A DNA stretch of 55,514 nucleotides from Candidatus Levyibacteriota bacterium. Its GTDB lineage: Bacteria; Patescibacteriota; Microgenomatia; Levybacterales; UBA12049. The stretch spans positions 1 to 55,514 of the forward strand of contig CAWBPM010000001.1 of NCBI GenBank assembly GCA_963790825.1. The letters are read 5' to 3'. Shown in pieces: positions 2,089 to 55,514 of this stretch (positions are counted from its first letter, which is position 1; every line of letters starts with the position of its first letter). The notes beneath the pieces are model-generated. The model saw only the letters and a program-made list of their open reading frames with translations, searched no databases and was not told where the DNA came from. A program made the position numbers and the translations under genes.

Positions 2089-2533
2089 ATGGGCAGCTAT
2101 GAGTTAATGTATAATAAACTTATACAATAAAGCTGTATGTCTAACTTTGTCTAACTATTATTACGACATATAAACATGGGTTTGTCAAGTATCTAATTTA
2201 AGTAGTTTAGCTTCGAAATTTTTACTTAGTATTTATCTTGTGACAATGTGAAAAGGTTGTGAAACTTTTTTGTTCATGTCAATAATAATTCGCAGTAATT
2301 GTTAAGAAGAATTTAAAACAATAAAACTTCTCTTTATCAATTCTTTGCTGCAAGGATATTTCAGGTGAATTTTTAAATATATCAAAAGCATAATATGTAC
2401 ATCATTATTACGTACACAAAAGTCCTCATCAGTGGTGGATTTAATGACGGAATTAGTATGGATAGAGCAAATTTTGCTAAGGTTAGTCTAAGTTTATGTC
2501 CAAGTTTCTTTTTTTTGTCCAACTTCAGTATAA

Positions 2534-3406
<873 letters not shown>

Positions 3407-8979: not shown

Positions 8980-9210
8980 ATGAATAATATGAATAGTGCT
9001 ATGCCTAATCAAAACATATCAATTGCTAATCTTCCAGATCTTCTTACTGTTCGTGAAGTTGCAGAGGTTCTTCGAGTATCTCCATTAACCATAAAACGCT
9101 GGGGTAAAAGGGGTAAACTGCCAGCAATTCGGATTAACTCACGGGGAGACCGCAGATATAAAAAAGAAGCAGTCCTTTGGCTGTTAGGAATTCAGCAAAA
9201 GAGTGAGTAA
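8980..9210 (+). CDS. Small excisionase/MerR-superfamily HTH DNA-binding protein
   Basis: LLTVREVAEVLRVSPLTIKRWGKRGKLPAIRINSRGDRRYKKEAV is a typical HTH_17-type pattern. The true start may be one of the in-frame ATGs a few codons downstream. Confidence 0.75.
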   Translation: MNNMNSAMPNQNISIANLPDLLTVREVAEVLRVSPLTIKRWGKRGKLPAIRINSRGDRRYKKEAVLWLLGIQQKSE

Positions 9211-12111: not shown

Positions 12112-12908
12112 AGTCTCAGTTTTGCAAGCAACTTGGGATCGCGCACATTTGTTTCGATACCGCTGCCTGCTTCTCCGATATCTTTCTTACCTCGTAGTGT
12201 CCTAAGTTTGTCTTTACTGTTCTTTGGCTCATACTCTTCTACTACCTGACCATCAATCATATGAAATATTTTTGTCGCATACGGCAAATACTCCAAATCG
12301 TGCGTAACCATTACAATGCTTTTTCCTTCTTCAACCAAATCAAGAAATGTTTTTAATAACTCCTGTCCTGAAACAGTATCCAAATTCCCTGTTGGCTCGT
12401 CAGCTACTATCAAAATTGGATCAATCATGAGAGACCGCACCAAACTTATTTTTTGCTGCTGTCCTGATGATAGTTCAGTCGGTTTATAATCCGCCCATTG
12501 TCCCAAACCCACCTTTTGCAAAAGATTCATGGCTTTTTGTTTCGCTTCCTCAGAATCTTTATGCAAAAGATATAAAGGGAAGGTCACGTTTTCTATAACC
12601 GAAAACGAACTAACCCAAAGCGGCATCTGATAAATAATGCCTATGTGATGCCGGCGGTAATATGCCCGTTCGTCTTCTGAGATGCTGTAGAAATCCTGTC
12701 CATCCAGCATCACTTTCCCGCTGGTCGGGATTTCAAGTCCTAAAAGTGTATGCAGTAACGTAGACTTCCCGCAACCTGACGGGCCGAAAATAATGACAAA
12801 TTCTTTCTTCTTAATATCTACATTAATTCCCTTCAGCACTTCGATATCGCTTCCGCCGACATGGAATGATTTTTTAATTTCAATTGTTTTTAATATGTCG
12901 TCTGCCAT
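12108..12908 (-). CDS. ABC transporter ATP-binding protein (MacB/LolD-like)
   Basis: Walker A GPSGCGKST, signature LSSGQQQ, Walker B ILIVADEPTGNLD, H-loop VTHD. Confidence 0.95.
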   Translation of the reverse strand: MADDILKTIEIKKSFHVGGSDIEVLKGINVDIKKKEFVIIFGPSGCGKSTLLHTLLGLEIPTSGKVMLDGQDFYSISEDERAYYRRHHIGIIYQMPLWVSSFSVIENVTFPLYLLHKDSEEAKQKAMNLLQKVGLGQWADYKPTELSSGQQQKISLVRSLMIDPILIVADEPTGNLDTVSGQELLKTFLDLVEEGKSIVMVTHDLEYLPYATKIFHMIDGQVVEEYEPKNSKDKLRTLRGKKDIGEAGSGIETNVRDPKLLAKLRL

Positions 12909-40135: not shown

Positions 40136-43100
40136 CTATATAACGAAGTTAATAATTTTACCGGGAATATAGACAATTTTTTTAACCGTTTTTTTTCTGA
40201 GATAGCGTGATACACCTTCCTGGATACTTGCTAACTCTTCTATCTTTTTTTGATTTGACAGCTCGTTTACTTCTGTCATCAACGTTCCTCTCAGCTTTCC
40301 ATTAATCTGTATCGCCATCGTCACAGTAGATTTTTTAAGAGCCTTCTCGTCAAAAGATGGCCAAACGCTGGTGTGGATCGAAAACTTCTCTCCTAGCCGC
40401 TCCCAGAGCTCTTCAGCTATATGCGGAGAGAAGGGCGCAATCAGTTGCAAAAAAGTTTTTGCTTCTTCATGGTTAATGCTGTCTTCTTTTGCGAGAAAAT
40501 TGTACCAGGACATTAATTTCGCAATTGCTGTATTAAAGCGCAGCGCCTCTATATCTTCAGTCACACCTTTTATCGTTTCGTTTTGCATCAATATCCCCTT
40601 CTGACTCGAACTAATTTCATAAGAGATATTTCGGGTTTCGAACAGTTTCCATACTCTCTTTAAAAACCTACTCATAGCTTCAATCCCACTGTCTTTAAAG
40701 TTTCCTTCCTCGCTAAATGGACCTAAGAACATTAAATATGTCCGAAGTGCGTCTGCCCCAAATTTTTTAATGTACAAATCCGGAGTGACAATGTTTCCCT
40801 TACTCTTACTCATCTTAGCTCCTTCCTTAATAATCAAACCATGCGCGTAAAAACGGGTAAACGGTTCCTCAAACGTTATTAAACCAAGGCCGTGAAAAAC
40901 CATTGTCAAAAATCGTGCGTATAAAAGATGCAGCACTGCATGCTCAGCCCCGCCAATACATATATTCACCGGTAACCATTTTTTTACCCGCTCCCTATCA
41001 AATACTTCACTATCTATATCAGTTGAGGTATAACGAAAGAAGTACCAGGCACTATCAAGAAACGTATCTGAAACATCGGTTTCACGACGGGCCATTTCAT
41101 GACACTCAGGGCACTTCGTTTCATAAAAGCTGGAATAATGATCAAGCGGCGCCCGTCCTGTCCCAAGCGGTTTATAATCCTCAATGTAAGGAAGCGTAAC
41201 AGGAAGATTTTCCTCAGGATACCAGCCCGCACTATTCCAGTCTTTTGTTTTTAACCCCTGTTGACTTAGCCACCCTTTGTTTTGTTTTGCACAATTTTCA
41301 CAGTAAATCATCGGGATCGGTGGTCCCCAATAACGCTGCCGTGAAATTAACCAATCGCGCAAGTGATATGTCGTTTTCCGCTGTCCAATTCCCTTTCCTT
41401 CAAGAGATTCAATAACTTTTCCAAGTGTCTCTGGAATAAACAAACCATTCCACTCTTCTGAATTAACGATCACACCTTCCCCTATATAAGGCTCATACCC
41501 CATCATGAGAAAATCGGCTTTATCATTCCAGCGCAAATTTAATCCTTTTTTAAGAGCAACATCTCTTTTTTGCTTGCAAAGCATATCCCTGCTCATTGTC
41601 CAAATCGGAAGAGTTTCAAATTCTTTTAGTTCAAATACGGTTTTAAAGGTATACTTATCTTCGTAAGGTTCTGCTTGACTTAACCATTCAAATTTACCAT
41701 TCTCTTTTAACCTTAAAGTAATAAAATCTATATAAATATCTTGCTTTGTAGCCTGGAAATAATATTTAGCATTTTTATCATCGGGAAACATATTTGATAT
41801 TGTAAAACCCTTTTCTTTAAGCCTCTCCTTCCACCAGTCCGTATCCTCTTCAAAGATAAAGAGATCTAAATCTTCATTCTCTCTAAATTGTTTCCCGACT
41901 TGTATAGCAACTGCCCAACCACCCCAAATGGCAATTTTCTTACCTGTTTTTTTTGCTGTCTTTAATATGTCAATTAAAACTTCTTTATGAAGATTAGTTC
42001 TTTTTTCATAGTAAGATTTTGCATTTTCATCCACATACTCTCTTTGAGGCAGAATTACAGGTTTAATCGGCAAATTGAATTTCTTCGCGAATTCAAAGTC
42101 GCGTTCGTCGTGCCCGGGAACTGCCATAATCGCACCAGTACCGAAGTCCATCAATACATAATCAGATATCCAGACAGGAATTAGTTCATGATTGACGGGA
42201 TTCTCGGCATACAAACCGGTAAACACTCCAGTTTTTTCTTTTTCCTCTCGTCTTTCTTCACTGGACTTTTGTTTGCTCAGCAAAATATATTTCTCCAGCT
42301 TTTCTCTATCTATTTCTTTACCTTTTGATATGGTTTGAAGTATTTCTCCAACTGCCGGATGCTCTGGAGAAAGGACTAAAAATGCTGCGCCGAATAATGT
42401 ATCCGGCCTGGTCGTAAAAACTTTTATTTTGAATTTTGAATTTTGAATTTTGAATTCTATTTCCGCCCCATCCTTCTTGCCAATCCAAGCCCGTTGGGCA
42501 GTTTTTACTTTTTCAGTCCAATTAATATGGTCTAGATTATGCAGAAGTTTATCTGCATAATTGGTAGTTCTGAAAAACCACTGTTCCAGATCTCTTTTTT
42601 CTACCTCAGTCCCGCATCGCTCACAAACCCCGACAGTTACCTCATTTAATTTTTCTTCATTCGCTTTGGATTTTGTAAGCACTTGCTCATCTGATAAAAC
42701 AGTTTTGCATGATGGACAAAAATTCACCGGAGCTTTCTTTCGGTATGCCAATCCTGCCTTAAAAAGCTCTGTGAAAATCCATTGCGTCCAGCGATAATAC
42801 CCGGGCTTCCATGTTTCAACTGTTCGCGACCAATCAAACGAATTACCAATCGCATGCATCTGGCGATAAAAATTCTCTTCGGATTTTTTCGCTTGCTCCA
42901 TTGGATGACTGCCAATTTTTAATGCGTAGTTTTCTGAGTGAATTCCAAATCCATCAAGACCAATTGGTTCAAAAACATCATTTCCTCTCATCCTCATAAA
43001 ACGACCATAGACGTCTGGTCCGGTCTGAGCAAACACATTTCCTACATGTAAACCTTCGGCTGAAGGGTAAGGAAACATCATAAGATTATAAAACGGCTTT

Positions 43101-43228
43101 TTAGCAAGCGTTAAATCCGGTTGATAGATCCTTTCTTTTAGCCATTTAGCTTGCCATTTCAGCTCAATCTCAAATGGTTGATATTCTGTTTTCTGCGTTT
43201 GCGGCTGTCTTTGATTGACTTTCTTCAT
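40136..43228 (-). CDS. leuS: Leucyl-tRNA synthetase with a ~170-180-aa extra domain inserted after the editing domain
   Basis: PYPSAEGLHVGNV (HIGH), KMSKSKGN, RDWLISRQRYWGPPIP and AVPGHDERDFEFAKKFNLPI. It is 1030 aa versus roughly 800-880 for typical bacterial enzymes. Confidence 0.95.
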   Translation of the reverse strand: MKKVNQRQPQTQKTEYQPFEIELKWQAKWLKERIYQPDLTLAKKPFYNLMMFPYPSAEGLHVGNVFAQTGPDVYGRFMRMRGNDVFEPIGLDGFGIHSENYALKIGSHPMEQAKKSEENFYRQMHAIGNSFDWSRTVETWKPGYYRWTQWIFTELFKAGLAYRKKAPVNFCPSCKTVLSDEQVLTKSKANEEKLNEVTVGVCERCGTEVEKRDLEQWFFRTTNYADKLLHNLDHINWTEKVKTAQRAWIGKKDGAEIEFKIQNSKFKIKVFTTRPDTLFGAAFLVLSPEHPAVGEILQTISKGKEIDREKLEKYILLSKQKSSEERREEKEKTGVFTGLYAENPVNHELIPVWISDYVLMDFGTGAIMAVPGHDERDFEFAKKFNLPIKPVILPQREYVDENAKSYYEKRTNLHKEVLIDILKTAKKTGKKIAIWGGWAVAIQVGKQFRENEDLDLFIFEEDTDWWKERLKEKGFTISNMFPDDKNAKYYFQATKQDIYIDFITLRLKENGKFEWLSQAEPYEDKYTFKTVFELKEFETLPIWTMSRDMLCKQKRDVALKKGLNLRWNDKADFLMMGYEPYIGEGVIVNSEEWNGLFIPETLGKVIESLEGKGIGQRKTTYHLRDWLISRQRYWGPPIPMIYCENCAKQNKGWLSQQGLKTKDWNSAGWYPEENLPVTLPYIEDYKPLGTGRAPLDHYSSFYETKCPECHEMARRETDVSDTFLDSAWYFFRYTSTDIDSEVFDRERVKKWLPVNICIGGAEHAVLHLLYARFLTMVFHGLGLITFEEPFTRFYAHGLIIKEGAKMSKSKGNIVTPDLYIKKFGADALRTYLMFLGPFSEEGNFKDSGIEAMSRFLKRVWKLFETRNISYEISSSQKGILMQNETIKGVTEDIEALRFNTAIAKLMSWYNFLAKEDSINHEEAKTFLQLIAPFSPHIAEELWERLGEKFSIHTSVWPSFDEKALKKSTVTMAIQINGKLRGTLMTEVNELSNQKKIEELASIQEGVSRYLRKKTVKKIVYIPGKIINFVI
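42427..42454. repeat. Perfect 4 x TTTTGAA heptanucleotide tandem repeat inside the leuS coding sequence
   Basis: Read directly: ttttgaa ttttgaa ttttgaa ttttgaa. It encodes ...EFKIQNSKFKIK... on the minus strand. Confidence 0.95.
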
Positions 43229-45091: not shown

Positions 45092-46372
45092 CTTCATAAT
45101 TATGGATGGCACTAACCTATGTTAATTGCGACGAAGCTTTTGTACTAAGATATGTCTAGACCTACTTGACATAATATAATTAGATCCGGCATTTCAGGAA
45201 ATGTTTCCCGAGAGTATCTCAGCATCAAGAAGGAAAACTGATTAGAAAGATATTTAGTATGAATACTCTTTGTTTTTTTGTTTCTTAAAGAAAATGGCTA
45301 GGTGTAAAAAAGTTCTATATTCTCGATGCTCAATAGGTTAATCGATTTCAGAACGTATTAACAGCGCAATTAAATTACGTATATAGTATATAGAGTGTTT
45401 CGAGGCTAAATCAAGCTTTAGGATAATTCAAGATAATGGGTATAGATATATAGAAAGGTTACTTGTTGTAAAATATTTCTTGAATTTAAATTGAGCTGGT
45501 TTTACAATCTAATAGTAACGATTGCAAGAGGTAGCAGACGACATGCTTGTTTGTTAAAAATATATCTTTTGCTCAATAAATATTAATTCAGAAAAATTTG
45601 ATTTACAATAAATCTTATATTAAAGAATAGGTCGATAAAAAACCGAGAGAAGTATAGAAATTTATCTCTTTTACAATTTTTTTTCTAGCCAACATTATCT
45701 TTATATCGATAAAATCTCTTATATGAAAAAGTGAGCAATGAATTTAAATGAAGGATAATTTTAATTCAATGTATCTTCATCGATAAATGTACATTGTGTC
45801 ACTAGAAAGTATTAATTAGTAAAGGTGCTCCTAGTTATTAATTTTCTTTTATGCAAGCAAGTTTTTGTATTATATTCGTGATTTCTTTTAAATCAAGGCT
45901 AATTGATGCTTTTATATATCTTTAGATATAATCTAATTAATTATCGGGTGTATTCAATAAAGTAGTATTTTACTAGAACTAACTGTATTTTAATTTTTTC
46001 AGATTATTATTTTCACACTTTTTCTCTTTTTTTTCGTATCTTTAGACTATCAATTAATATCTTATGCCATCATCACTTTACTTCTATAGGATATTGACAT
46101 AATCAATTAAACTCGTTTAGGCTGTAATAAGGTATGAAAAATTTAAGTCTTTCTTTTTTTGATAATCGGTATAATCCGTATAATCTCGAAGCTATCTGTC
46201 TAGAAGCTATATTGTGAAATTAATTAGAGATAAATATTTGCCTTGTGAAAATGCGGTTTTCATTTGCTTAAAAAGCAAATACTTATGCAATCAATATTTA
46301 AACAGAGAAAATAGGATGAGATTGACTAGTATTAATTACAACATAAGTATTCAAAGAGAATCAAGTTAATCT

Positions 46373-49300
46373 ATGAATGCTATTTTAAATAACTTCAAAA
46401 ACTATTTACTATCAGGATCAGAAGGATCAGCCAAAGCAACAATAAAGAATTACCTAGCTGATATTCGTAAGTTCATATTCTGGTACGAAAAGCAGTTAGG
46501 GAAGTCGTTTGCCATATCTGATGTCACTCAGCAAATAGTAAATGAATACGAAAAGAGCCTAAAAATAGATGCAGAGAGTGCCAAAATAGCAGAAAGCAGT
46601 GTAGAGCGCTATACATCTTCTCTTCGTAAATTTCTTCAGTACGCTCAGAAGGAGGGGCTGATTTCCTGGACATTAAGTTATTCCACAGCCTTAGCAGGAG
46701 AATCAAAAGATATCTGGCATCTTAAGTCATTTCAGAATTTTCTTTACCGGGAAAAAACATCACCTCTTACTATAAAAAACTATATCAATGACGTTAAACA
46801 ATTTCTATCTTGGGTCACCGCAGTCTCCTGGGTGGAAACCAGTTGGAAAATAAAAGAGAAAAATATTTTTGCCAAAATTGATAACATGCTTATTAAGGAG
46901 TACAAATCGCGCCTCTTTTACGAAGCGCGGCTTTCCCCGCTTTCAATCAATCGGAAGCTATCTTCTGTCAGGCGTTTTTGTCTTTGGGCACAGCAAAATG
47001 GTTTACTCGAGAAAAACATCAGTATTTGTAGTTCTAATGTCAACCCTAAAATGATTACTTCTGAAAATCTGAAAACAATTGCTTTATCTGAGTACCCTCA
47101 CGCAGCCTCGTCTTCGCAGATGACAGATTTATCTTCGAAAGTACGGTCAAAAAAAGCCTATTCTTCTTTTCCTCCATTTAGATTCTGGCAAAAGACATCT
47201 CGGGGAATCAATTTCCTTGTCGATTATACACTGGTATTGGGAATTGTTAGGGTTATTGAGGCTACGGGACATGTTATCTGGATTATTTCAGGAAAAAATA
47301 TTTTCCAAGACAACGCAAGTGTATTTTATCAGGGAAAACTTGGACGATTATATTTGAAGAACAAAGCGAAAGGCAAGCAGGATTATCGATCATTTCTACC
47401 AATTGCTAATGTTAAAAAGGAAATTTACGCTCCTCTTGGCATCTCAATCAAATATCTCCCTTTGTATAAAAGATTCTTTTATCATCTTCGCCATTCCCGA
47501 CCTGAATGGTATAAAAGATATCATTCCTATACATTATCTCACTATCTTCATTTGGGAATTTTTATTATTTGCGTGTCTGTAGTAGGCATAAAAGTTGCAA
47601 ATGTCTTAGCACAAGAGCCACTTCAAGTGCTACGTACTCCGCTTTTACCGATTTCTCAAGCTCCACCCAGAATTTTATCTTTTAAAGAAAAATTGACAGA
47701 TATCAGTGGCAGACCAATAACCGCAACAACGAAACTGCGGTTTGCTCTTTATAATGATCCTGCAGCTTCGGGATCGGCATTAATCTGGCAAGAAGTACGA
47801 GACGTACAACCAAATATTGACGGTTTATTTACTGTTGATTTGGGAAAGGATACAACACTTCCTGTAAGTATATTTACGCAAAACCCCAGCCTCTATCTGG
47901 GAACCACGATAGAGAATCAATCGGAGCTTGCTCCACGTCAACCAGTAGCAACACAAACGTATGTCGAGGATAGTCAAACTGTGCAGGGACTCTCCCCGAT
48001 CACCCAGTTTGGAGCAGGAGAAAAAAATGTGCTTTTGACTCTCGATTCAACAGGTAATTTAACAATTGGAGATAATGCATCTCCTACTTTTGAGGCTACG
48101 GGTGGACAGTTTCAATTGTCGGGTCAAGGACTGCTTTTAACGACTGGGACCGGATCAAACACCGATATCACTCTTGCTCCTGATGGACTGGGAGAAATTG
48201 ATGTGCAAAAACCACTTTATAACAGCAATAATTTTACTCTCCCCGGAGCAACCCCAGGCTCCCTGCAGGTCAATGACTCACTATCAGTACTAGCCTCAAC
48301 CAGCGCGTATCCTGTGCTTAATATTGTTCAGACGCTGGCAGGACCATTGATTGCTGCTTCATCGAGCGGATCAACAAAATTTAGTGTTGATTTTCTCGGC
48401 GCAGGCTTTTTTGCAGACAATCTGACAGTCAATGGTGGCAATATCACAACCAATCAAACTACAGCAAGCTTATTTAGCAGCAATGCGATTAATCTAAATA
48501 TTGGGCATGATGCAAGTGCGTTGTCTTTGGGTGCTGAGACTGGTGTTGCAACGATTAATAATGCTGAGACTGATGTAGCAGGAAATTTTACTATTCAAGG
48601 AACAAGTGGCCAAACAATAACCGGGGCTGGAGCAGGAATCTTTTTCTCCGGTAATGGCACGCACGTAATCTCTGCGGGGTCAGGCACCCTTACACTCGGA
48701 CAAGCTCAGATAAATGGCAATCTTACGCTAGCTGATAATACTGCTATTTTGCCTTCCACAAATAATGGAAATGATAATTTAGGCTCTTCTGATAATCCAT
48801 TCAGAACGCTTTATGTAAATAATATTGTTTCTCCTGCATTGTCTCAAGCTGCAAATTATCTCCAGTCACAAAATGGCTCCCTTTTTCCGATAAACCCAAC
48901 AAATGATTTTCTACTCGGCGGAAACGCAACCAGCTCAGCTTTATGGCAGGTATTTGGTTCAGGACTAAACGCCGGCACAGCTTCAAGTTCGGGAAATTTG
49001 ACCTTTATCCATCCAACTACAACTATTTCTGAACTTAATGGCGGTAGTTTAAACTTCCAGGTTTCACCCGGTGGAGATAGCTTAGCTAGTTCTGCTCTCT
49101 TCATTGCGCAATCCGGTAATATTGGTATTAATACTATTCATCCGGATTTCAAATTAGACATTCAGGACTTCCAAATAGCCACAGCCGCTGCCCAGATATA
49201 TAACACAAGCGAAGGAGTAGACGCTGATGGATTACTAGTAAAACTGGGATATACAGGAAACGGAACTCAACCTACTTCGGCTAATGGCTATATTGGAAAT

Positions 49301-51313
49301 CGGTTCATTAGCTTTGTCAACGGTGTTGGGACTACGGAAGGTGCAATTCAATCTGATGGAGCTGGAGGCATTGAATATAAAACAACTGGAGCTGATTTTG
49401 CCGAATACTTTAGCAAATCAGACCCAACGGAACCAATATCTTCAGGAGATATTATCTGCCAAACAGATAGCGGAGTACACAGATGCGATAGTCAATCAGC
49501 AATAATTGGCGTTGTATCCGAGCATCCTGGCTTCACCGGGGGCGAAGATGGACCGAATAAAATTCTCGTTGCTTTAAATGGACAGGTACTTGTAAACGTA
49601 CTTACGACTAACGGGATTATTAAGTCCGGTGACCCAATCACAACTTCAGATATTCCAGGTATCGGTGTAAAAGCTAGCAAAGCCGGTCAAATTATTGGTA
49701 GAGCTTTAGAAAGTTACAGCGCAGATCCCTATACTGCTGGTGAGATTACTGTACTTATTTCACCGTCGTGGTTTGATCCAAATGTCTATTTAACCAATAG
49801 TGGGAACCTTAATATTTCTTCGAGCTCAACTGGAAACACCTATAGCGTGACTGAGGCTGATGGTAACTTTGCTACTCAGGTCGGTAACTTTAGTAAAGCA
49901 ACAATTGCTTCTTTGCAAACAGGCGTGATTGGTGCGCAGGAATTATTGGTTGACAGCTCAGCAACGATTCTAGGAACCTTGAAAGTAGGAATAATTCAAG
50001 CCTCAGAGATAAGTACAAATAGCATTTTTATCGGGGGGCAAAGCCTTAAAGATTATGTGTTAGGTATCATAAAAACACAGCCGATCGTCTCGCCTCTTGC
50101 CGATATTGATATGGTCCATACAAATACCATATCGCCTCTGTCAGATACAAGTAACATCTCTGTATCTCTAAATGACTCTAAGTTTTCTATTCATAATTCT
50201 CAATCTGCATCTTCAGAGGCTGTTGCAACGATTGATAACAATGGAAATGCTACCTTTAGTGGTACTCTTCGGGCAAATAAGATTATTGCATCAGATATTG
50301 AAGGGATTGATAATTTGCCGTCTGCGTCACCATCCGCAATATATGTCACGAACATTACCAACATATCAAATAATTACACTAATGCATCAAATTCTGCGAC
50401 TCCTACCCCCACAATCTCACCAACTACACCAGATCTGGTACAAGCTTCACAGAACGCTTTTTCTACGCCAAGCGGTATACTTACGAGCTTCACCGATACG
50501 GGTGTTGCCAATTTGGCATCAGTCTCTGCGTTTCTTTCTTATGTGCCGAATCTTGAGGCTGATGTTGCCACATTTACCCAAGGGATTATGTCTTTCGGAC
50601 CAACTAGCCTGTCCGATGTTTCTATCGCAGGACAATTATCACTTGGCGGGAATACAATTTATTCCGATAACAGCATTAATGTCATAGGAGCTGACTTGAA
50701 TTTGCAACCCTTACGCCAAGGTGGTGTTTCGATTATGGGAGGATTAGTGGAAATTGACACCGCAGGAAATCTAAATGTTAGCGGCAATGCGGTCTTCGCT
50801 AAAAATGTCCAAGTCTCAGGCACACTTAGTGCTAGCTTAATAAGTCCTCTTCCCGGTAAGGATCTTATAGTTCAGTTGGATCCGGAAAATACAACTCAAA
50901 CTTCTCCTTCTTTTGCTATTCATAACGCATCGGGCAGTGGCGTCTTTGCAATTAACGAACTAGGCAGTTTGATCGCTTCAGGCAGTGGTACGTTTGCAGA
51001 GCTCGCTGCTCAAGGATTCAGTATTGTAAGAGGAGCTCAAGCTGATACTTCAGTTATAGAAACGGTTGCAACTTCATCGGCTGGGGTAGGAACTATACTT
51101 TCAGGTCAAACTGAAAGAACAATTATCACTCCTTTTGTCAAAGCAACCTCGCTTATTTATCTTACTCCTACCTCTAATACTTTTGGTTTGCAACCCTATG
51201 TGGCAAGACAAATACCGGAAGACAAACAAAATCAGACCAAAGGCTCATTTACTGTACAGATTCCTAGGGTTCTTCCTGAGGACATAAGCTTTAATTGGTG
51301 GATCGTTAATTAA
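46373..51313 (+). CDS. Giant (1646 aa) membrane protein: two tandem integrase-type SAM-like (core-binding) domains, TM helix, tail-fibre-like ectodomain
   Basis: Domain 1: FKNYLLSGSEGSAKATIKNYLADIRKFIFWY...SVERYTSSLRKFLQYAQKEGLI. Domain 2: FQNFLYREKTSPLTIKNYINDVKQFLSWV...SPLSINRKLSSVRRFCLWAQQNGLL. No recombinase catalytic domain follows. TM helix LHLGIFIICVSVVGIKVANVLA at about 47550-47615. Fibre motifs include IGINTIHPDFKLDIQD and GADFAEYF...IIGVVSEHPGF...GDPITTSDIPGIGVKA. Confidence 0.9.
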   Translation: MNAILNNFKNYLLSGSEGSAKATIKNYLADIRKFIFWYEKQLGKSFAISDVTQQIVNEYEKSLKIDAESAKIAESSVERYTSSLRKFLQYAQKEGLISWTLSYSTALAGESKDIWHLKSFQNFLYREKTSPLTIKNYINDVKQFLSWVTAVSWVETSWKIKEKNIFAKIDNMLIKEYKSRLFYEARLSPLSINRKLSSVRRFCLWAQQNGLLEKNISICSSNVNPKMITSENLKTIALSEYPHAASSSQMTDLSSKVRSKKAYSSFPPFRFWQKTSRGINFLVDYTLVLGIVRVIEATGHVIWIISGKNIFQDNASVFYQGKLGRLYLKNKAKGKQDYRSFLPIANVKKEIYAPLGISIKYLPLYKRFFYHLRHSRPEWYKRYHSYTLSHYLHLGIFIICVSVVGIKVANVLAQEPLQVLRTPLLPISQAPPRILSFKEKLTDISGRPITATTKLRFALYNDPAASGSALIWQEVRDVQPNIDGLFTVDLGKDTTLPVSIFTQNPSLYLGTTIENQSELAPRQPVATQTYVEDSQTVQGLSPITQFGAGEKNVLLTLDSTGNLTIGDNASPTFEATGGQFQLSGQGLLLTTGTGSNTDITLAPDGLGEIDVQKPLYNSNNFTLPGATPGSLQVNDSLSVLASTSAYPVLNIVQTLAGPLIAASSSGSTKFSVDFLGAGFFADNLTVNGGNITTNQTTASLFSSNAINLNIGHDASALSLGAETGVATINNAETDVAGNFTIQGTSGQTITGAGAGIFFSGNGTHVISAGSGTLTLGQAQINGNLTLADNTAILPSTNNGNDNLGSSDNPFRTLYVNNIVSPALSQAANYLQSQNGSLFPINPTNDFLLGGNATSSALWQVFGSGLNAGTASSSGNLTFIHPTTTISELNGGSLNFQVSPGGDSLASSALFIAQSGNIGINTIHPDFKLDIQDFQIATAAAQIYNTSEGVDADGLLVKLGYTGNGTQPTSANGYIGNRFISFVNGVGTTEGAIQSDGAGGIEYKTTGADFAEYFSKSDPTEPISSGDIICQTDSGVHRCDSQSAIIGVVSEHPGFTGGEDGPNKILVALNGQVLVNVLTTNGIIKSGDPITTSDIPGIGVKASKAGQIIGRALESYSADPYTAGEITVLISPSWFDPNVYLTNSGNLNISSSSTGNTYSVTEADGNFATQVGNFSKATIASLQTGVIGAQELLVDSSATILGTLKVGIIQASEISTNSIFIGGQSLKDYVLGIIKTQPIVSPLADIDMVHTNTISPLSDTSNISVSLNDSKFSIHNSQSASSEAVATIDNNGNATFSGTLRANKIIASDIEGIDNLPSASPSAIYVTNITNISNNYTNASNSATPTPTISPTTPDLVQASQNAFSTPSGILTSFTDTGVANLASVSAFLSYVPNLEADVATFTQGIMSFGPTSLSDVSIAGQLSLGGNTIYSDNSINVIGADLNLQPLRQGGVSIMGGLVEIDTAGNLNVSGNAVFAKNVQVSGTLSASLISPLPGKDLIVQLDPENTTQTSPSFAIHNASGSGVFAINELGSLIASGSGTFAELAAQGFSIVRGAQADTSVIETVATSSAGVGTILSGQTERTIITPFVKATSLIYLTPTSNTFGLQPYVARQIPEDKQNQTKGSFTVQIPRVLPEDISFNWWIVN

Positions 51314-51457: not shown

Positions 51458-54400
51458 ATGCTGCCCTATCTAAATAATCAAGAAACGTACTCAATTCAGG
51501 ATGCCGCTAATTTTCTCGGGATTTCGCCGCAGACTCTTCGTAGGCTCGAAGAACGAGGTATTTTGATTCCGGAGCGGACAGAAGGAAATCATCGTAGGTA
51601 CACACAGGAAGCTTTAGCTACTTACAAAAAAAATAAAAAAAGAGTTGGGACATCTACTTTGATAACTCCACAAGTACGTAATTTTGGAAGTGAGGCAACC
51701 GCTACAATTAGCAACACATCTTCACAACCTGGTATACAAATCATTTCCCCTACTCAACCCATACAGAAACAACCATCTTTAAATACTGTAAGTCAAATAT
51801 CTAATCAGCCAGTACCATCGGTAACCGATCAGCTGAGAAATATTATAAAGTTTGGTAAACCGCAAGCAGATCTTGTTCAGGAAATTGAAAGTCCCTTCCC
51901 CCTTGAAACGAATGGTTACGAAGTAATAGAGAACCCTGAGCAGAGTCAGCCAAAATCCCATGGTTTCCCTAAAAAACCGTCTATTATTTTCAGTGGAGTA
52001 TTAGCTGTTATCTTACTGATCTTCTTCAGCTTGTTATTCTTTAATCGAAATTCCTCGCTAAAAACCTCAACTACAACAAGCCAAACAAATAATAGCAAGT
52101 ACCAAAATATGTATTCAGGGAAAAAACCACTTACTTCAGATCTTGTTTTTAAAGTAGAAATTCCAAGTATATTTGGTGGTAATGTAGAATTCTTGCAAAA
52201 CCTTACCGTTGATAAAAATCTCACTGTAAAAGGTAAAGCAATTTTTAATAGCGGAATTTCTACTAATAACCAAAATATCGATGCGGGAAATGGGACGATT
52301 ACTGCGAGTAATGTGTTGTATGGGATTAAAGCAGGAACTGGAATATCAGTTACTGCAGGCCAAACTCCAACCATCTCAAATTCCGGGGTTACATCTCTAC
52401 AAAACCAGACAGGAAGCTTGCAATTAACTGCGGGATCTGGAATTAGTATTTCAGGCTTAACTATTAGCGCTACTGGTGCTAATTCTTCAAGTTTATCAAG
52501 TTCATATTGGCAACAATCAGGAAACTCTCTTTTCCCTACTACTTTATCAAATGATATTTTAATTGGCGGGAATACTTTGTCTTCTGCCTTATTTTCCGTA
52601 TCTGGAACGACCGGTAATGTAGGAGTATCAGGCACAGTAAATTTTAGTGGTTTAAACGCTTCATCGCCTGTTTTTACCGATGCGTCAAAAAACTTAACAA
52701 ATACAGGAATACTGGACATCGGACACGGCGGTACCGGACAAACTAGTTTTTCATCAAATGCTGTTTTGTTTGGTAATGGTACAGGACCACTTAATTCCAC
52801 GTCTCCACCAACCGCCGGCCAAGTATTGATGGGCAATTTGTCCGGAGTCCCAACATTTACCACCCTCACCGGTGGTATTAGCGTTGATGGAGCAGGTAAT
52901 GTTTCAATAGGATCACACGTTGTCACATTAGGTCCGAATACTACTGGAAACTATCAATCTGGAACAACTGCCGGGAATGGGATATCAGTTAGTGGAACTC
53001 CTGATGCGGGTTGGAGTCCTACGATAGCTATTAATCTTACTTCCTCCGGAGTCAGTAGTAGCACCAGTGCAAATTCAGGATTAGAATCTACCGCTTCTGG
53101 ACTTTCCCTTTTACGTGGATGCGGTAACGGACAAATCTTAAAGTGGGATGCAGACTTAGATCTTTGGGAATGTAATAACGATGCGGGTGCTGGATCAAAT
53201 GCAATTATCAATGTAACCGGCAACAGCTACAGTTCAATTGATACTAGTACTCTTAATTTTTCGAATGATTTCTCGCTCAACGAATCTCCTCTCGGTCAAA
53301 CCAATATAGCGATTGACTACGCTACTTCATATATTACAAGAAGTAACCAGAACGAAACAATTAGTGGTGTTTGGAATTTTAGTAATGGAATAGGAATTGG
53401 CACCACTACTCCTGGAGCTCAACTAAATATTAGTAGCGCAAGTACCGGCAAAGCTCTTGCTATTTTTAATGAAATAGGAGACCAAAATATTCTGACTGCT
53501 TCAAGTTCTGGCAACACTGTTTTTACCATCGATAATACGGGAGCTATCATAACCGGCAGTTATCAAGGAACAACTATTGCAGCTCAATATGGCGGTACCG
53601 GACAGTCCAGCTATACTGCCGGAGATCTCCTTTACGCTACCGGAGCGACTAGTTTAGGTAAACTCTCTGCTGGATCTGGTAATAACGGTAGGGTTCTAAC
53701 TGTTGTCGCCGGCCTACCGGTCTGGGCTTCAGTTTCCGGAGGAGTAGGCGGACTCTGTACTGATTGTGTTATTAATGATCCAAGTTCTAATGCCTTCAAT
53801 ACAATTACTCCAACTGCGAGCAACGTGACCGGCCTCTCAGTCGCTCAAGCATCAGGAGGCAATGTTGATATTTTCAATGTCACTAATAATGGAGGAGGTA
53901 CAACATATCTACAAGTAGCAAGTAATGGCAATATTCTTCTGCCTAATTCCTTCCTTGGTATCGGTACCACCTCACCCATCAGTCTTCTAGATACCGAAGG
54001 AAAAGTAACCGGTAAAGCCTTAGTCTCGCTTAATGAAACCGGCAACCAGAATATCCTGACTGCCAGTGCATCCGGTACTACGGTCTTTACCCTTGACCGC
54101 TCGGGTAACCTTAACAGTGTCAGCGGTGCTTACCAGATCGCCGGTAACAGCGTTCTCTCCTCAACAACCCTGGGAACCGGTGTTACCTCCTCCTCCCTGA
54201 CAACAGTCGGAACACTCACCTCCGGTACCTGGAACGCAACACTTATCACCAGTCAGTACGGCGGTACAGGATTCAACAATAGTGCAGCTGCCCAATACGC
54301 TCTCCCGTACTACTCGGCAACCGGAGTCTTAGGCGGAACTTTGGCAGTCGGAACAACCGGACAATGTCTGGTTGGCAATACCACTGCTGCACCAAGCTGG

Positions 54401-54937
54401 TCGTCTTGTACCGGACTGGGCACCAATTACTTCCAGAGAAATACCACTACCCTCTCTCCGGCAACAGCCAGCGATTCACTCCTCCTGGCTGACTCGGGAA
54501 CTACGACTAACTTCAGGCTGGAAGTCAACGGGAAACAAACCGGTAAAGCCTTAGTCTCGCTTAATGAAACCGGCAACCAGAATATCCTGACTGCCAGTGC
54601 ATCCGGTACTACGGTCTTTACCCTTGACCGCTCGGGTAACCTTAACAGTGTCAGCGGTGCTTACCAGATCGCCGGCAACAGCGTTCTCTCCTCAACAACC
54701 CTGGGAACCGGTGTTACTTCCTCCTCCCTGACAACAGTCGGAACACTCACCTCCGGTACCTGGAACGCAACACTTATCACCAGTCAGTACGGCGGTACAG
54801 GATTCAACAATAGTGCAGCTGCCCAATACGCTCTCCCGTACTACTCGGCAACCGGAGTCTTAGGCGGAACTTTGGCAGTCGGAACAACCGGACAATGTCT
54901 GGTTGGCAATTCCAATGGACAAGTGCCACAAACATGA
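51458..54937 (+). CDS. Giant (at least 1159 aa) membrane protein: MerR/excisionase-type HTH, low-complexity linker, TM helix, tail-fibre-like ectodomain; the C-terminus appears artificially or recombinationally truncated
   Basis: YSIQDAANFLGISPQTLRRLEERGILIPERTEGNHRRY. TM helix IIFSGVLAVILLIFFSLLFF at about 51980-52050. Fibre motifs IGIGTTTPGAQLNISS and LGIGTTSPISLLDTEG. Repeated modules of the form GKAL..NE.G.QNILTAS.SG.TVFT.D and YGGTG. The last 9 codons (SNGQVPQT plus stop) are antisense to a glycosyltransferase gene. Confidence 0.85.
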   Translation: MLPYLNNQETYSIQDAANFLGISPQTLRRLEERGILIPERTEGNHRRYTQEALATYKKNKKRVGTSTLITPQVRNFGSEATATISNTSSQPGIQIISPTQPIQKQPSLNTVSQISNQPVPSVTDQLRNIIKFGKPQADLVQEIESPFPLETNGYEVIENPEQSQPKSHGFPKKPSIIFSGVLAVILLIFFSLLFFNRNSSLKTSTTTSQTNNSKYQNMYSGKKPLTSDLVFKVEIPSIFGGNVEFLQNLTVDKNLTVKGKAIFNSGISTNNQNIDAGNGTITASNVLYGIKAGTGISVTAGQTPTISNSGVTSLQNQTGSLQLTAGSGISISGLTISATGANSSSLSSSYWQQSGNSLFPTTLSNDILIGGNTLSSALFSVSGTTGNVGVSGTVNFSGLNASSPVFTDASKNLTNTGILDIGHGGTGQTSFSSNAVLFGNGTGPLNSTSPPTAGQVLMGNLSGVPTFTTLTGGISVDGAGNVSIGSHVVTLGPNTTGNYQSGTTAGNGISVSGTPDAGWSPTIAINLTSSGVSSSTSANSGLESTASGLSLLRGCGNGQILKWDADLDLWECNNDAGAGSNAIINVTGNSYSSIDTSTLNFSNDFSLNESPLGQTNIAIDYATSYITRSNQNETISGVWNFSNGIGIGTTTPGAQLNISSASTGKALAIFNEIGDQNILTASSSGNTVFTIDNTGAIITGSYQGTTIAAQYGGTGQSSYTAGDLLYATGATSLGKLSAGSGNNGRVLTVVAGLPVWASVSGGVGGLCTDCVINDPSSNAFNTITPTASNVTGLSVAQASGGNVDIFNVTNNGGGTTYLQVASNGNILLPNSFLGIGTTSPISLLDTEGKVTGKALVSLNETGNQNILTASASGTTVFTLDRSGNLNSVSGAYQIAGNSVLSSTTLGTGVTSSSLTTVGTLTSGTWNATLITSQYGGTGFNNSAAAQYALPYYSATGVLGGTLAVGTTGQCLVGNTTAAPSWSSCTGLGTNYFQRNTTTLSPATASDSLLLADSGTTTNFRLEVNGKQTGKALVSLNETGNQNILTASASGTTVFTLDRSGNLNSVSGAYQIAGNSVLSSTTLGTGVTSSSLTTVGTLTSGTWNATLITSQYGGTGFNNSAAAQYALPYYSATGVLGGTLAVGTTGQCLVGNSNGQVPQT
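54007..54379 (+). repeat. Direct repeat copy 1 of the 373-nt fibre C-terminal cassette
   Basis: Base-by-base identical to 54538..54910 except at 54145 (T versus C) and 54187 (C versus T), both synonymous. The offset of 531 nt keeps the reading frame. Confidence 0.95.
54538..54910 (+). repeat. Direct repeat copy 2 of the 373-nt fibre C-terminal cassette, ending at the breakpoint
   Basis: See copy 1. After 54910 the similarity to the sequence following copy 1 (accactgctgcaccaagctgg...) stops abruptly. Confidence 0.95.
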
Positions 54938-55514
54938 ACGGTAAAAAGCATATAGTCACCCCGTAAGCATGATAGTTAACAGCAATAACAACCAGCAAGC
55001 CCGTCAGGAAGGTCTTCATTTTGTTCCAAGAACCGGCCTGATCATTGATCCTGTGCGCGCAATAAAGCGATGCCAGGGCCAAGGCAGGAAGAACAGCATA
55101 CGGTCGAAATTCAAAAGAATGGAATACCAAATTCTGATTAAGGGCCATGATCATAAACGCAACGAAATACCCTACCCACGAACGGAAATAATAATGACCA
55201 ACTTTATATAACAGCCAAAAGCCAATAATAGTTATAAGAATATGCGGGATCGCCAACCCCCATTTATTCATGCCAAACCAATGAATAAAAAAATAATTCA
55301 ACAAATATTCCCCTGGGAAAGTGGAATGATCCCCGTAGGTTTGATGTAGCCAGAAAGGTTTAAAAGCTCCTTGCATGCAATGGAATTGATAAACCTCGTC
55401 ACCCAATAGCTCCCTCCTGCCTAACTTCATAAATCTTAAATACAACCCATAACAAGAAATAAGCAGTGCCACGATCGCGGGCATATTCTTCTTAAAGGCA
55501 AATGGAAATTTGAG
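54911..55514 (-). pseudogene. N-terminal fragment of a GT-C-fold (ArnT/PMT-like, GT39/GT83-type) membrane glycosyltransferase, truncated at 54910/54911; the 5' end may extend off-window
   Basis: Polytopic hydrophobic sequence with a first-loop LLGDEVYQ (acidic DE motif) and STFPGEYLLNYFFIHWFG. The frame is still open upstream of ATG 55484 to the window edge. Only about 200 aa are present, whereas such enzymes are usually more than 400 aa. The ORF tail PDIVRLFRLPKFRLRLRL... is antisense to the fibre cassette. Confidence 0.5.

What the first reader, a model, noticed from the sequence alone, without database searches (positions are those of the whole stretch)
51458..54937. MerR-type HTH, TM helix and giant fibre: a second kind of DNA-binding-domain-tethered surface protein, present twice
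Both edge genes begin with a clear MerR/excisionase-type HTH: IQDAANFLGISPQTLRRLEERGILIPERTEGNHRRY here and IQEAATFLGVSTKTLRRWDAAGSLVPERTIGNQRRY in 1..2088. A ~110-aa low-complexity linker follows, then a single TM helix and a fibre-like ectodomain with IGIGTT.P...L motifs and repeated GGTG modules. The topology places the HTH in the cytoplasm and the fibre outside, analogous to ToxR/CadC-type one-component regulators but with an ectodomain of more than 900 aa. Two free-standing HTH_17-type proteins (8980 and 24267) are also encoded in the window. This may be a contact-sensing or adhesion system of an episymbiotic cell.
Basis: partly seen in the sequence, partly recalled or inferred. Interest (0 to 1): 0.75.

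Follow-up and report, generated by a model that had tools for sequence, protein, structure and literature searches.

The report
DNA-binding head tethered to giant fibre
Two genes at the ends of this window encode membrane proteins with a small DNA-binding domain inside the cell and a giant fibre outside, and relatives across a whole group of ultra-small bacteria carry a conserved DNA motif at their own promoter, which suggests the fibre protein controls its own gene from the membrane.

Summary
Gene A (51458..54937, +) and gene B (1..2088, -) each start with a MerR-type winged HTH that passes Pfam's cut-off. A disordered linker, one TM helix and a Gly/Ser/Thr-rich repetitive ectodomain follow. 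The fusion is not a sequencing artefact. More than 70 Microgenomates (CPR) genomes keep it, in proteins of up to 7185 aa.

Complete relatives end in tailspike-type intramolecular-chaperone domains. Gene A does not, because it breaks off at 54917, a deletion or misassembly point.

Gene B's orthologues almost always lie divergent from an unusual ATP-synthase operon. TTRGACA sites start just after the extended -10 box of their promoters, as direct repeats 10 bp apart and inverted copies 17-20 bp apart. These sites are present when the HTH recognition helix is canonical (56/73 loci) and absent when it is altered (0/7, gene A included).

The best reading is a membrane-tethered, BldC/RacA-like autoregulator. 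Binding of the HTH to these sites is inferred, not shown. Contact sensing is untested.

Transmembrane regulators with MerR-type heads have already been catalogued, so this is a new variant of a known kind. It is a large, coherent and apparently undescribed family.

The parts
51458..54937 (+). Gene A: HTH-linker-TM-fibre protein, 1159 aa as assembled. It is the A-type paralogue that follows gene C.
   Evidence: ORF; Pfam MerR/HTH_17/MerR_1; the order C-like gene then A-like gene is conserved in L017 and L025
51476..51646 (+). Gene A winged HTH (aa 7-63), a MerR-type DNA-binding domain only
   Evidence: pLDDT 86-91. Foldseek matches NmlR, RacA-DNA and BldC-DNA (rmsd 1.7-1.9 A, TM-score on target 0.70-0.76)
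51647..51967 (+). Disordered, low-complexity cytoplasmic linker (aa 64-170)
   Evidence: pLDDT below 50; S/P/Q/T/I-rich; not conserved among relatives
51983..52051 (+). Single TM helix (about aa 176-198)
   Evidence: Kyte-Doolittle 2.97; AlphaFold helix 178-195
52052..54917 (+). Repetitive Gly/Ser/Thr-rich ectodomain. The membrane-proximal module (aa about 230-340) is conserved in the family.
   Evidence: Alignment A1/A3; 1059 representative clusters match aa 215-701
53999..54386 (+). First copy of a 388-nt internal repeat (531-nt period)
   Evidence: 98.2% identity to 54530-54917. 204 nt of it are 94.6% identical to gene B at 184-387
54530..54917 (+). Second copy of the repeat. Identity stops at 54917, the breakpoint that truncates gene A.
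   Evidence: The Pfam PMT_2 match of the minus-strand ORF 54804..55484 ends at its aa 189, which is base 54918
1..2088 (-). Gene B: HTH-linker-TM-fibre protein, first 696 aa (C-terminus off the window). It is the syntenic orthologue of the family.
   Evidence: About 65 of 73 non-redundant related loci have the same divergent arrangement with the ATP-synthase operon
2160..2188 (-). Gene B promoter: TTGACA, 17-bp spacer containing TG, then cgTAAT (extended -10)
   Evidence: Read from the sequence. The layout TTGACA-N14-TGt-(c/a)gTAAT is conserved in 70 loci aligned on TTGACA
2138..2154 (-). Two TTAGACA sites 10 bp apart, starting 5 nt after the -10 box: candidate operator
   Evidence: Family-wide enrichment and positions
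2476..2523 (-). Distal cluster of TTGGACA-type sites (two exact, two degenerate), 47-94 bp upstream of the -35 box of the first ATP-synthase-operon gene
   Evidence: promoter at 2570-2598
2633..3406 (+). p278: first gene of the ATP-synthase operon and the conserved divergent neighbour of gene B. It has an ectodomain homologous to the chaperone-like region of gene C's fibre and a C-terminal hairpin resembling ATP synthase subunit c.
   Evidence: BLASTP against gene C aa 1022-1133, E=5e-11. The only PDB sequence hits are subunit c. Orthologues found in 66 loci
46373..51313 (+). Gene C: two Phage_int_SAM-like domains, TM, fibre, Peptidase_G2 chaperone domain. It is the upstream partner of gene A.
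   Evidence: Pfam; C-like genes precede A-like genes in L017 and L025

Best explanation
Genes A and B belong to a family of single-pass membrane proteins found across the Microgenomates (CPR).

Anatomy. The cytoplasmic N-terminus is a MerR-type winged HTH. It consists of the DNA-binding domain alone, as in BldC and RacA, with no dimerisation helix and no effector domain. A disordered tether of 30-160 aa links it to one TM helix. Outside lies a giant repetitive fibre, giving proteins of 0.7 to more than 7 thousand aa in all. In complete members the fibre ends in the intramolecular-chaperone domains of trimeric phage tailspikes.

Most likely mechanism (inferred). The tethered HTH binds an array of TTRGACA sites that begins about 5 nt after the extended -10 box of the fibre gene's own strong promoter. 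It thereby represses or meters transcription of this very long, secreted product from the membrane. This makes it a transmembrane transcription regulator whose 'sensor' domain is the fibre itself. Because the fibre is probably a trimer, several HTHs would sit together. That fits arrays of two to six sites on one face of the helix.

Shown: the architecture, its conservation, the synteny, the motif, and the co-variation of the motif with the recognition helix.

Inferred: DNA binding by this HTH, repression, and trimerisation.

Unknown: whether fibre assembly or contact changes binding.

Gene A is a truncated paralogue with a diverged helix and no canonical sites.
For: HTH. It passes Pfam's cut-off and is confidently folded. 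Its closest structures are DNA-bound MerR-family domains, including BldC and RacA.

Conservation. The HTH is nearly invariant while the linker is not.

Topology. One TM helix lies at aa 80-220 in all relatives, and the charge bias follows the positive-inside rule.

Motif enrichment. TTGGACA is the most enriched 7-mer in the 200 bp upstream of the fibre gene. It occurs in 51 of 74 loci, 77 times against 2.4 expected.

Motif position. The bin -100..-1 holds 125 TTRGACA sites, against about 1-2 per bin elsewhere.

Spacing. Direct spacing peaks at 10 bp, with further peaks at 20-22 and 32 bp. Forward-to-inverted spacing is 17-20 bp.

Not an RNA hairpin. Seven site pairs would give A.C mismatches and none is compensated.

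The sites follow the fibre gene, not the ATP-synthase operon. Paralogues with no such operon nearby (L029, L033, L035, L073) still have them.

Co-variation. Loci with the canonical helix [STAG]KTLRRW have two or more exact sites in 56 of 73 cases. Loci with an altered helix have them in 0 of 7 (Fisher p=1e-4).

Precedents. BldC binds variable numbers of direct repeats head to tail (PMC5859096). Transmembrane regulators with MerR-type heads exist (PMC10269533, supplementary file 4).

Tandem double-HTH variants (about 20 of 50) argue that the head really is used to bind DNA.

Tailspike-type C-termini.
Against: - No binding data exist.
- Another factor could read the sites. One candidate is the 76-aa HTH protein at 8980..9210, which is 82-93% identical across relatives.
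- The co-variation test is not corrected for phylogeny, and 17 of 73 canonical loci have fewer than two exact sites.
- A second conserved motif, GATAAGATTA twice upstream of the -35 box, shows that other regulators also act here.
- The promoter does not have the classical MerR layout. The spacer is 17 bp and the sites lie downstream of the -10 box.
- Gene A, the object of the finding, lacks the sites.
- The ectodomain could not be modelled, so 'trimeric fibre' rests on domain families seen in relatives.
Confidence: 0.5

Rival explanations
1. Contact or adhesion sensor. The state of the fibre, bound to a host cell or under load, is passed through the TM helix to the HTH. The HTH then switches a regulon that includes the neighbouring ATP-synthase operon, as ToxR and CadC do.
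For: - The topology matches that of transmembrane regulators.
- About 65 of 73 loci lie divergent from the ATP-synthase operon.
- In the window a second site cluster lies 47-94 bp upstream of that operon's -35 box.
Against: - Across loci where the two promoters are well separated, sites show only a weak excess 100-450 bp upstream of the p278 gene, far below the peak at the fibre promoter.
- No clusters occur elsewhere in the window or in the 10-kb flanks.
- A single TM helix followed by a disordered linker of about 100 aa is a poor conduit for a conformational signal.
- Nothing here bears on host contact.
Confidence: 0.15
2. Architectural anchor. The HTH ties a chromosomal locus to the membrane at the base of the fibre, as RacA ties the Bacillus chromosome to the cell pole. 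It would have no primary role in transcription.
For: - RacA-DNA is among the best structural matches and is also a weak sequence hit.
- Multi-site arrays would suit avid anchoring by a trimer.
- The family is conserved and near-universal in one clade.
Against: - The sites overlap the transcription start of the protein's own gene. This is the classic position of an autorepressor, and it is hard to occupy without affecting transcription.
- Only one cluster per locus is seen in the DNA held.
Confidence: 0.12
3. The HTH no longer binds DNA. It serves as a protein-interaction or folding module, as the HTH of RodZ binds MreB, and the TTRGACA sites are read by a separate soluble regulator.
For: - A very conserved 76-aa HTH protein is encoded nearby in several genomes.
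- RodZ shows that an HTH-TM-ectodomain protein can use its HTH for protein binding (general knowledge).
Against: - The recognition helix and wing (KTLRRW, RTxGNQRRY) are the most conserved parts of the protein.
- The sites disappear exactly where that helix changes.
- Tandem double-HTH variants exist.
Confidence: 0.12
4. Releasable transcription factor. Proteolysis within or near the membrane frees the HTH once the fibre is assembled or pulled, as in Notch, MYRF or RsgI-type signalling.
For: - One protein combines a DNA-binding domain, a TM helix and tailspike chaperone domains, which recalls MYRF (general knowledge; the lead came).
- The long disordered linker could hold a cleavage site.
Against: - The self-cleaving chaperone domains lie at the far extracellular C-terminus, so their cleavage cannot free the HTH.
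- No protease gene is linked in the loci examined.
- No conserved motif was found in the linker.
Confidence: 0.05
5. Artefact. The HTH is a separate small gene joined to the fibre gene by a sequencing or assembly error.
For: The contig ends lie in repeats, and gene A's 3' end is a breakpoint.
Against: The same uninterrupted HTH-TM-fibre frame occurs in more than 70 independent assemblies.
Confidence: 0.01

Closest known systems
Transmembrane transcription regulators (ToxR, CadC, TcpP and the wider class surveyed in PMC10269533)
   Same: A cytoplasmic N-terminal DNA-binding domain, a single TM helix and an extracytoplasmic C-terminal part in one polypeptide. The survey lists MerR (386), MerR_1 (350) and HTH_17 (151) heads among 50,302 such proteins.
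   Different: ToxR and CadC use an OmpR-type winged helix and a small periplasmic sensor. Here the head is MerR-type and the outside part is a repetitive fibre of up to about 7000 aa with tailspike chaperone domains. The searchable text of that survey does not mention Patescibacteria.
BldC (Streptomyces), a MerR-like protein made of the DNA-binding domain only
   Same: The same minimal winged HTH with no coiled coil or effector domain (Foldseek rmsd 1.7-1.9 A; NCBIfam HTH_BldC hit for gene B, E=5e-8 but below the cut-off). BldC binds variable numbers of direct repeats head to tail (PMC5859096). The candidate operator here is an array of 2-6 direct repeats 10 bp apart.
   Different: BldC is a free 68-aa protein that recognises AT-rich AATT-type repeats. 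Here the domain is tethered to the membrane, the repeat is TTRGACA, and an inverted copy is often added.
RacA (Bacillus subtilis chromosome anchor)
   Same: A MerR-like winged HTH used at the membrane to hold DNA. It is a top structural match.
   Different: RacA reaches the membrane through DivIVA, binds GC-rich palindromes as a symmetric dimer, and has no TM helix or ectodomain.
Phage tailspikes and tail fibres with C-terminal intramolecular chaperones (Peptidase_G2 as in phi29 gp12; Peptidase_S74 as in endosialidase)
   Same: Complete family members and gene C carry Peptidase_G2 and K1-lyase_C-like C-termini. Some relatives without an HTH carry Peptidase_S74.
   Different: These are chromosomal genes of cells, anchored by an N-terminal TM helix. 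The repeat region has no PHROGs or Pfam match. Gene A as assembled lacks the C-terminal domains.
MYRF (eukaryotic membrane-bound transcription factor)
   Same: One polypeptide combines a DNA-binding domain, a TM helix and a phage-tailspike chaperone domain that drives trimerisation (general knowledge).
   Different: In MYRF the chaperone domain lies between the DNA-binding domain and the TM helix, on the cytoplasmic side, and its cleavage releases the factor. Here it is extracellular and C-terminal.

Membership tests
Classical MerR-family transcription regulators | N-terminal winged HTH matching the MerR profiles | tested here: met
   PF00376 E=7e-12 (gene A) and 4e-11 (gene B), both above the cut-off
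Classical MerR-family transcription regulators | Long coiled-coil dimerisation helix after the HTH | tested here: not met
   The MerR_1 match covers only profile positions 1-45 of 69. AlphaFold shows helix 50-63 and then disorder.
Classical MerR-family transcription regulators | C-terminal effector-binding domain | tested here: not met
   A low-complexity linker, a TM helix and the fibre follow instead
Classical MerR-family transcription regulators | Operator dyad inside an over-long 19-20 bp spacer between the -35 and -10 boxes | tested here: not met
   The spacer is 17 bp with an extended -10 box, and the sites start after the -10 box
BldC-like MerR proteins (DNA-binding domain only) | Minimal winged HTH that is structurally BldC-like | tested here: met
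   Foldseek matches 6ama and 6amk, TM-score on target 0.70-0.76, rmsd 1.7-1.9 A
BldC-like MerR proteins (DNA-binding domain only) | Small free-standing protein | tested here: not met
   The domain is fused to a membrane protein of 700-7000 aa
BldC-like MerR proteins (DNA-binding domain only) | Cooperative head-to-tail binding to direct repeats | not testable with these tools
   Candidate arrays of direct repeats 10 bp apart exist. Binding was not measured.
Transmembrane transcription regulators | A recognised DNA-binding domain and at least one TM region in the same protein | tested here: met
Transmembrane transcription regulators | Regulates transcription while in the membrane | not testable with these tools
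   Indirect support only: conserved sites at the protein's own promoter that co-vary with the recognition helix
ToxR/CadC family proper | OmpR-type (Trans_reg_C) winged helix | tested here: not met
   No Trans_reg_C hit. The head is MerR-type.
Tailspike-like fibres with an intramolecular chaperone | C-terminal Peptidase_G2 or Peptidase_S74 auto-processing domain | tested here: not met
   Gene A's ectodomain has no Pfam hit and is truncated at 54917. The feature is met in gene C and in the complete orthologues L025 and L069. Gene B's C-terminus lies outside the window.
Tailspike-like fibres with an intramolecular chaperone | Homotrimeric fibre | not testable with these tools
   Only monomer predictions could be run, and they gave pLDDT 30-45 for the ectodomain

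The most novel reading that the evidence does not exclude
The fibre and its HTH form a one-protein link from the cell surface to the promoter. The assembly, load or host-contact state of a giant trimeric attachment fibre sets how its three tethered BldC-like heads occupy the TTRGACA array. This would control the fibre gene and the divergent operon. That operon encodes an F-type ATPase whose subunit-c-like first gene has no ion-binding carboxylate and carries an ectodomain homologous to the fibre's C-terminal region. In this reading the surface fibre and an atypical rotary ATPase are parts of one envelope machine of ultra-small episymbiotic bacteria.
Probability: 0.12. Interest if true: 0.9.

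Novelty: new variant of a known kind. Interest (0 to 1): 0.66.

Why it matters
Microgenomates and other CPR bacteria are uncultured and very small, and they are thought to live attached to other cells. How they build and control their surface structures is largely unknown.

This family gives a concrete, testable case. It is a very large surface fibre whose own N-terminus appears to read a defined DNA motif at its own promoter. The HTH and a 60-bp DNA fragment are enough for a binding test.

If the mechanism holds, it extends membrane-bound transcription regulators to a structural surface protein. It would also give the first predicted regulator-operator pair conserved across a CPR class.

The fixed neighbourhood with an unusual ATP-synthase operon raises a second question, namely what that ATPase does. 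Its subunit-c-like protein lacks the ion-binding carboxylate and carries a fibre-like ectodomain.

Public annotation names these proteins 'MerR family transcriptional regulator, partial'. That label hides what they are.

Tried and rejected
1. RNA hairpin in the 5' leader (AACUUGGACA pairing with UGUCCAAGUU). Rejected. Seven site pairs would give A.C mismatches and none is compensated. Several Levybacteria have only direct repeats.

2. Classical MerR promoter with a 19-20 bp spacer. This looked likely at first. Rejected after aligning 70 promoters, which show a 17-bp spacer and an extended -10 box.

3. Sites shared with the promoter of the first ATP-synthase-operon gene. Only a weak excess was seen. 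The CTGCC element before the start codon occurs in 41 of 73 fibre genes but in only 5 of 66 p278 genes.

4. Structure of the ectodomain. AlphaFold on aa 1-347 and on the Cys-containing module at aa 509-678 gave pLDDT 30-45 outside the HTH and TM helix, which is unusable.

5. PHROGs and Pfam on the ectodomain gave no hits. NCBIfam gave one sub-threshold ectodomain hit (TIGR03066, aa 848-916, E=0.001, 19 bits against a 93-bit cut-off).

6. Rfam on the window found only two tRNAs.

7. Literature searches for this architecture in CPR found nothing specific.

8. The first search for related loci attempt failed because the alignment was too diverse.

9. Fusion artefact rejected (see rival explanations).

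Full report
**1. The observation**

Gene A is an ORF at 51458..54937 (+) of 1159 aa. Gene B is the reverse strand of 1..2088 and gives 696 aa before it leaves the window. Both start with a MerR-type winged HTH that passes Pfam's curated cut-offs. PF00376 scores E=7e-12 for A and 4e-11 for B, and HTH_17 and MerR_1 also pass.

NCBIfam gives only sub-threshold hits, to HspR, BldC, excisionase and the IS607 N-terminus. These are all proteins that use the same minimal domain.

A Kyte-Doolittle scan finds exactly one strongly hydrophobic segment in each protein, at A about 176-198 and B about 145-165. The stretch between the HTH and the TM helix is S/P/Q/T/I-rich. The part after the TM helix is 14% each of Thr, Gly and Ser.

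AlphaFold on A residues 1-347 gives pLDDT 86-91 for residues 7-63 (strand, two helices, wing, third helix). It gives below 50 for residues 64-170, a helix at 178-195, and no usable model of the ectodomain.

A and B are 39% identical over about 700 aa. They also share 204 nt at 94.6% DNA identity, which points to recent exchange between repeat modules.

**2. Gene A is truncated**

Gene A contains a 388-nt repeat with a 531-nt period at 98% identity. That identity stops at 54917. On the other strand an ORF runs from 55484 to 54804. Its Pfam PMT_2 match ends at its residue 189, which is base 54918. So two converging genes both break at one point, 597 bp from the end of the contig. The window is the whole contig.

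Complete relatives are much longer and end in domains that gene A lacks (section 4). Gene A's stop codon is therefore a deletion or misassembly junction, not its native end.

**3. The fusion is real and widespread**

A search of the 5.8-billion-protein collection returned 11 or more proteins of 745-1896 aa with MerR/HTH_17 heads. They come from Levybacteria, Amesbacteria and other Patescibacteria, and NCBI names them 'MerR family transcriptional regulator, partial'.

A scan of GTDB species representatives confirmed 226 relatives. The 80 that were fetched carry titles of Levy-, Ames-, Woese- and Shapirobacteria, plus many with placeholder names.

In these loci the HTH, one TM helix at aa 80-220 and a long ORF lie in one frame. 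Complete ORFs are 720-3420 aa, and many others run off their contigs at more than 2000-3600 aa.

A profile-free search with A's ectodomain (aa 215-701) found 1059 representative clusters with proteins of up to 7185 aa. Of the 166 proteins held:
- 50 begin with the HTH and then one TM helix, and about 20 of these have a tandem double HTH;
- 49 begin directly with a TM helix;
- the rest are fragments.

Across 66 relatives the N-flank of the TM helix is richer in K+R than the C-flank (3.05 against 1.73; N>C in 47, N<C in 11). This fits a cytoplasmic HTH.

**4. The outside part**

The ectodomain of A has no Pfam or PHROGs hit.

Complete HTH-bearing relatives (L025 at 2455 aa, L069 at 3014 aa) end with a Peptidase_G2 intramolecular-chaperone domain and a K1-lyase_C-like domain, and with a '...W(W/F)IV(N/D)' tail. 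Gene C (46373..51313) ends the same way. Some relatives without an HTH carry Peptidase_S74.

These domains are hallmarks of trimeric phage tailspikes (established knowledge). The fibre is therefore probably a trimer, but this is inferred.

Gene C has two Phage_int_SAM-like domains where A and B have the HTH. The same kind of fibre thus comes with different DNA-binding heads.

The order [about 240 aa][about 330 aa]-gap-[C-like]-[A-like] is conserved in L017 and L025.

**5. Synteny of gene B**

All eight homologues looked up by exact sequence lie next to the F-type ATPase operon. About 65 of the 73 non-redundant GTDB loci have the same arrangement. The fibre gene is divergent from the gene order p278-b-delta-alpha-gamma-beta-epsilon, at a distance of 200-2300 bp. 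This is the arrangement of gene B in the window.

The other flanks differ between loci. Sequence identity among the fibre N-termini is only about 30-40%. The pairing is therefore maintained and not merely inherited.

**6. A conserved operator-like array**

The upstream regions show repeated AACTTGGACA/AACTTAGACA words. The numbers are as follows.

- TTGGACA is the most enriched 7-mer in the 200 bp upstream of the fibre gene. It occurs in 51 of 74 loci, 77 times against 2.4 expected.
- The bin -100..-1 holds 82 forward and 43 reverse TTRGACA sites. The background is about 1-2 per bin.
- 66 of 73 loci have at least one site, 55 have two or more, and 30 have three or more.
- Direct spacing peaks at 10 bp (19 cases), with 20-22 and 32 bp as multiples. 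Forward-to-reverse spacing is 17-20 bp in 24 of 36 cases.

Aligned on the -35 box, the promoters read TTGACA-N14-TGt-(c/a)gTAAT. This is a 17-bp spacer with an extended -10 box. The first site begins about 5 nt after the -10 box, so it lies over the expected transcription start.

In the window the elements lie at these positions:
- the promoter at 2160-2188 (-);
- two TTAGACA sites at 2138-2154;
- a second cluster at 2476-2523, upstream of the p278 promoter at 2570-2598.

Within the 55-kb window exact sites cluster nowhere else.

**7. Who reads the sites?**

An RNA hairpin is unlikely. Seven forward/inverted pairs would form A.C mismatches, six would form G.U pairs, and none is compensated. 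Some genomes have only direct repeats.

The sites follow the fibre gene and not the ATPase operon. Paralogues with no such operon nearby still have them (L029, L033, L035, L073).

The sites also co-vary with the fibre's own recognition helix. Loci with [STAG]KTLRRW have two or more exact sites in 56 of 73 cases. Loci with an altered helix have none in 7 of 7 cases (Fisher p=1.1e-4, not corrected for phylogeny). The altered set is gene A with SPQTLRRL, L025, L039, L053, L003 and the double-HTH proteins of L004 and L008. L025 shows a different inverted repeat (AACCTAT...ATAGGTT) at the same place.

The best structural matches of the HTH are DNA-bound MerR-family domains. They include BldC (rmsd 1.7-1.9 A) and RacA. 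BldC, which is likewise a DNA-binding domain alone, binds variable numbers of direct repeats head to tail (PMC5859096).

Taken together, the most economical reading is autoregulation by the tethered HTH. A trimeric fibre would bring several heads to an array on one face of the DNA. One further idea is pure inference. The N-terminal HTH of a nascent chain could bind in cis while the very long remainder is still being made and exported, which would meter initiation.

**8. What is not shown**

No binding has been measured. The 76-aa HTH protein (8980..9210) is 82-93% identical across genomes and often lies near this locus, so it is a serious alternative reader. A second conserved element, GATAAGATTA twice upstream of the -35 box in about 25 loci, shows that further factors act here. 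Nothing here tests contact sensing.

**9. Comparison with known systems**

Transmembrane transcription regulators are widespread and include MerR-type heads: 386 MerR, 350 MerR_1 and 151 HTH_17 among 50,302 (PMC10269533). The general kind is therefore known.

Three things were not found in the literature searched:
- the giant tailspike-like ectodomain;
- the clade-wide family with its fixed neighbour;
- the conserved array of direct repeats.

The proteins fail the tests for classical MerR regulators. They have no coiled coil, no effector domain and no 19-20 bp spacer. They also fail the test for ToxR/CadC proper, since they have no OmpR-type helix. They are BldC-like in fold but not free-standing.

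**10. Verdict**

The architecture is confirmed and the family is large. The mechanism is plausible and directly testable. Gene A is a truncated, diverged paralogue, and gene B is the informative copy. I rate this a new variant of a known kind, with interest 0.66.

Noticed in passing
window 2633..3406 (+), with orthologues in 66 loci: The first gene of the ATP-synthase operon has a signal/TM segment and then an ectodomain homologous to gene C's chaperone-like region (E=5e-11). Its C-terminal hairpin finds only ATP synthase subunit c in the PDB (E=0.046). The ion-binding Glu of subunit c aligns with Leu, and no orthologue has an acidic residue in that helix. No subunit a or canonical subunit c gene is annotated in the eight loci with Pfam data.
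   Followed up: partly
window 54917/54918: Gene A's repeat identity and the Pfam match of the converging PMT_2 glycosyltransferase ORF (54804..55484, -) end at the same base. Both genes are truncated here, 597 bp from the contig end. This is a deletion or a chimeric assembly join.
   Followed up: partly
window 2089..2097 (-), and positions -9..-6 before the start codon in 41 of 73 related fibre genes: A CTGCC(C) word lies directly before the ATG of the fibre gene. No Shine-Dalgarno-like sequence is present. It occurs before only 5 of 66 p278 genes (p278 is the first ATP-synthase-operon gene). In the window it occurs only before gene B and the p278 gene, among 32 genes checked.
   Followed up: partly
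L013, L023, L050, L061, L063-L067 and other loci, 8-30 bp upstream of the -35 box of the fibre gene: Two direct copies of GATAAGATTA about 11 bp apart occur in roughly 25 loci. This is a second conserved cis-element, distinct from TTRGACA. It is absent from gene B's promoter in the window.
   Followed up: no
window 8980..9210 (+): This 76-aa HTH_17/MerR protein lies just after the epsilon-subunit gene. It is 82-93% identical in seven other genomes, far more conserved than the ATPase beta subunit (about 60%). It may be a global DNA-binding protein.
   Followed up: partly
window 46162..46194: A 33-nt element with two GTATAATC words 10 bp apart, followed by TCGARGC, lies about 190 bp upstream of gene C. 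It is about 91% identical upstream of the C-like genes of L017 and L025.
   Followed up: partly
window 45092..46372: A 1281-bp stretch upstream of gene C has no ORF of 100 aa or more, 27% GC (window mean 40%) and no Rfam hit. A comparable gap exists in L017 (3 kb) and L025 (0.8 kb).
   Followed up: partly
window 40136..43228 (-): A 1030-aa leucyl-tRNA synthetase carries an extra segment at aa 418-573 that matches the aminoglycoside-2''-adenylyltransferase/nucleotidyltransferase profile (PF10706, E=2e-9).
   Followed up: no
window 12910..20073 (-): A 2387-aa protein with Kelch repeats and fibronectin type III domains lies next to a MacB/FtsX-type ABC transporter (9928..12908). It is another giant surface protein in the same contig.
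   Followed up: no
window 184..387 and 54011..54214 / 54542..54745: A 204-nt stretch is 94.6% identical between genes A and B, which are otherwise 39% identical as proteins. This suggests recent gene conversion between fibre modules.
   Followed up: no
L009-L088 record titles: About 35 of the 80 related genome records are titled 'uncultured Gammaproteobacteria' although their gene content matches Microgenomates. These are probably placeholder names in a third-party assembly set.
   Followed up: no
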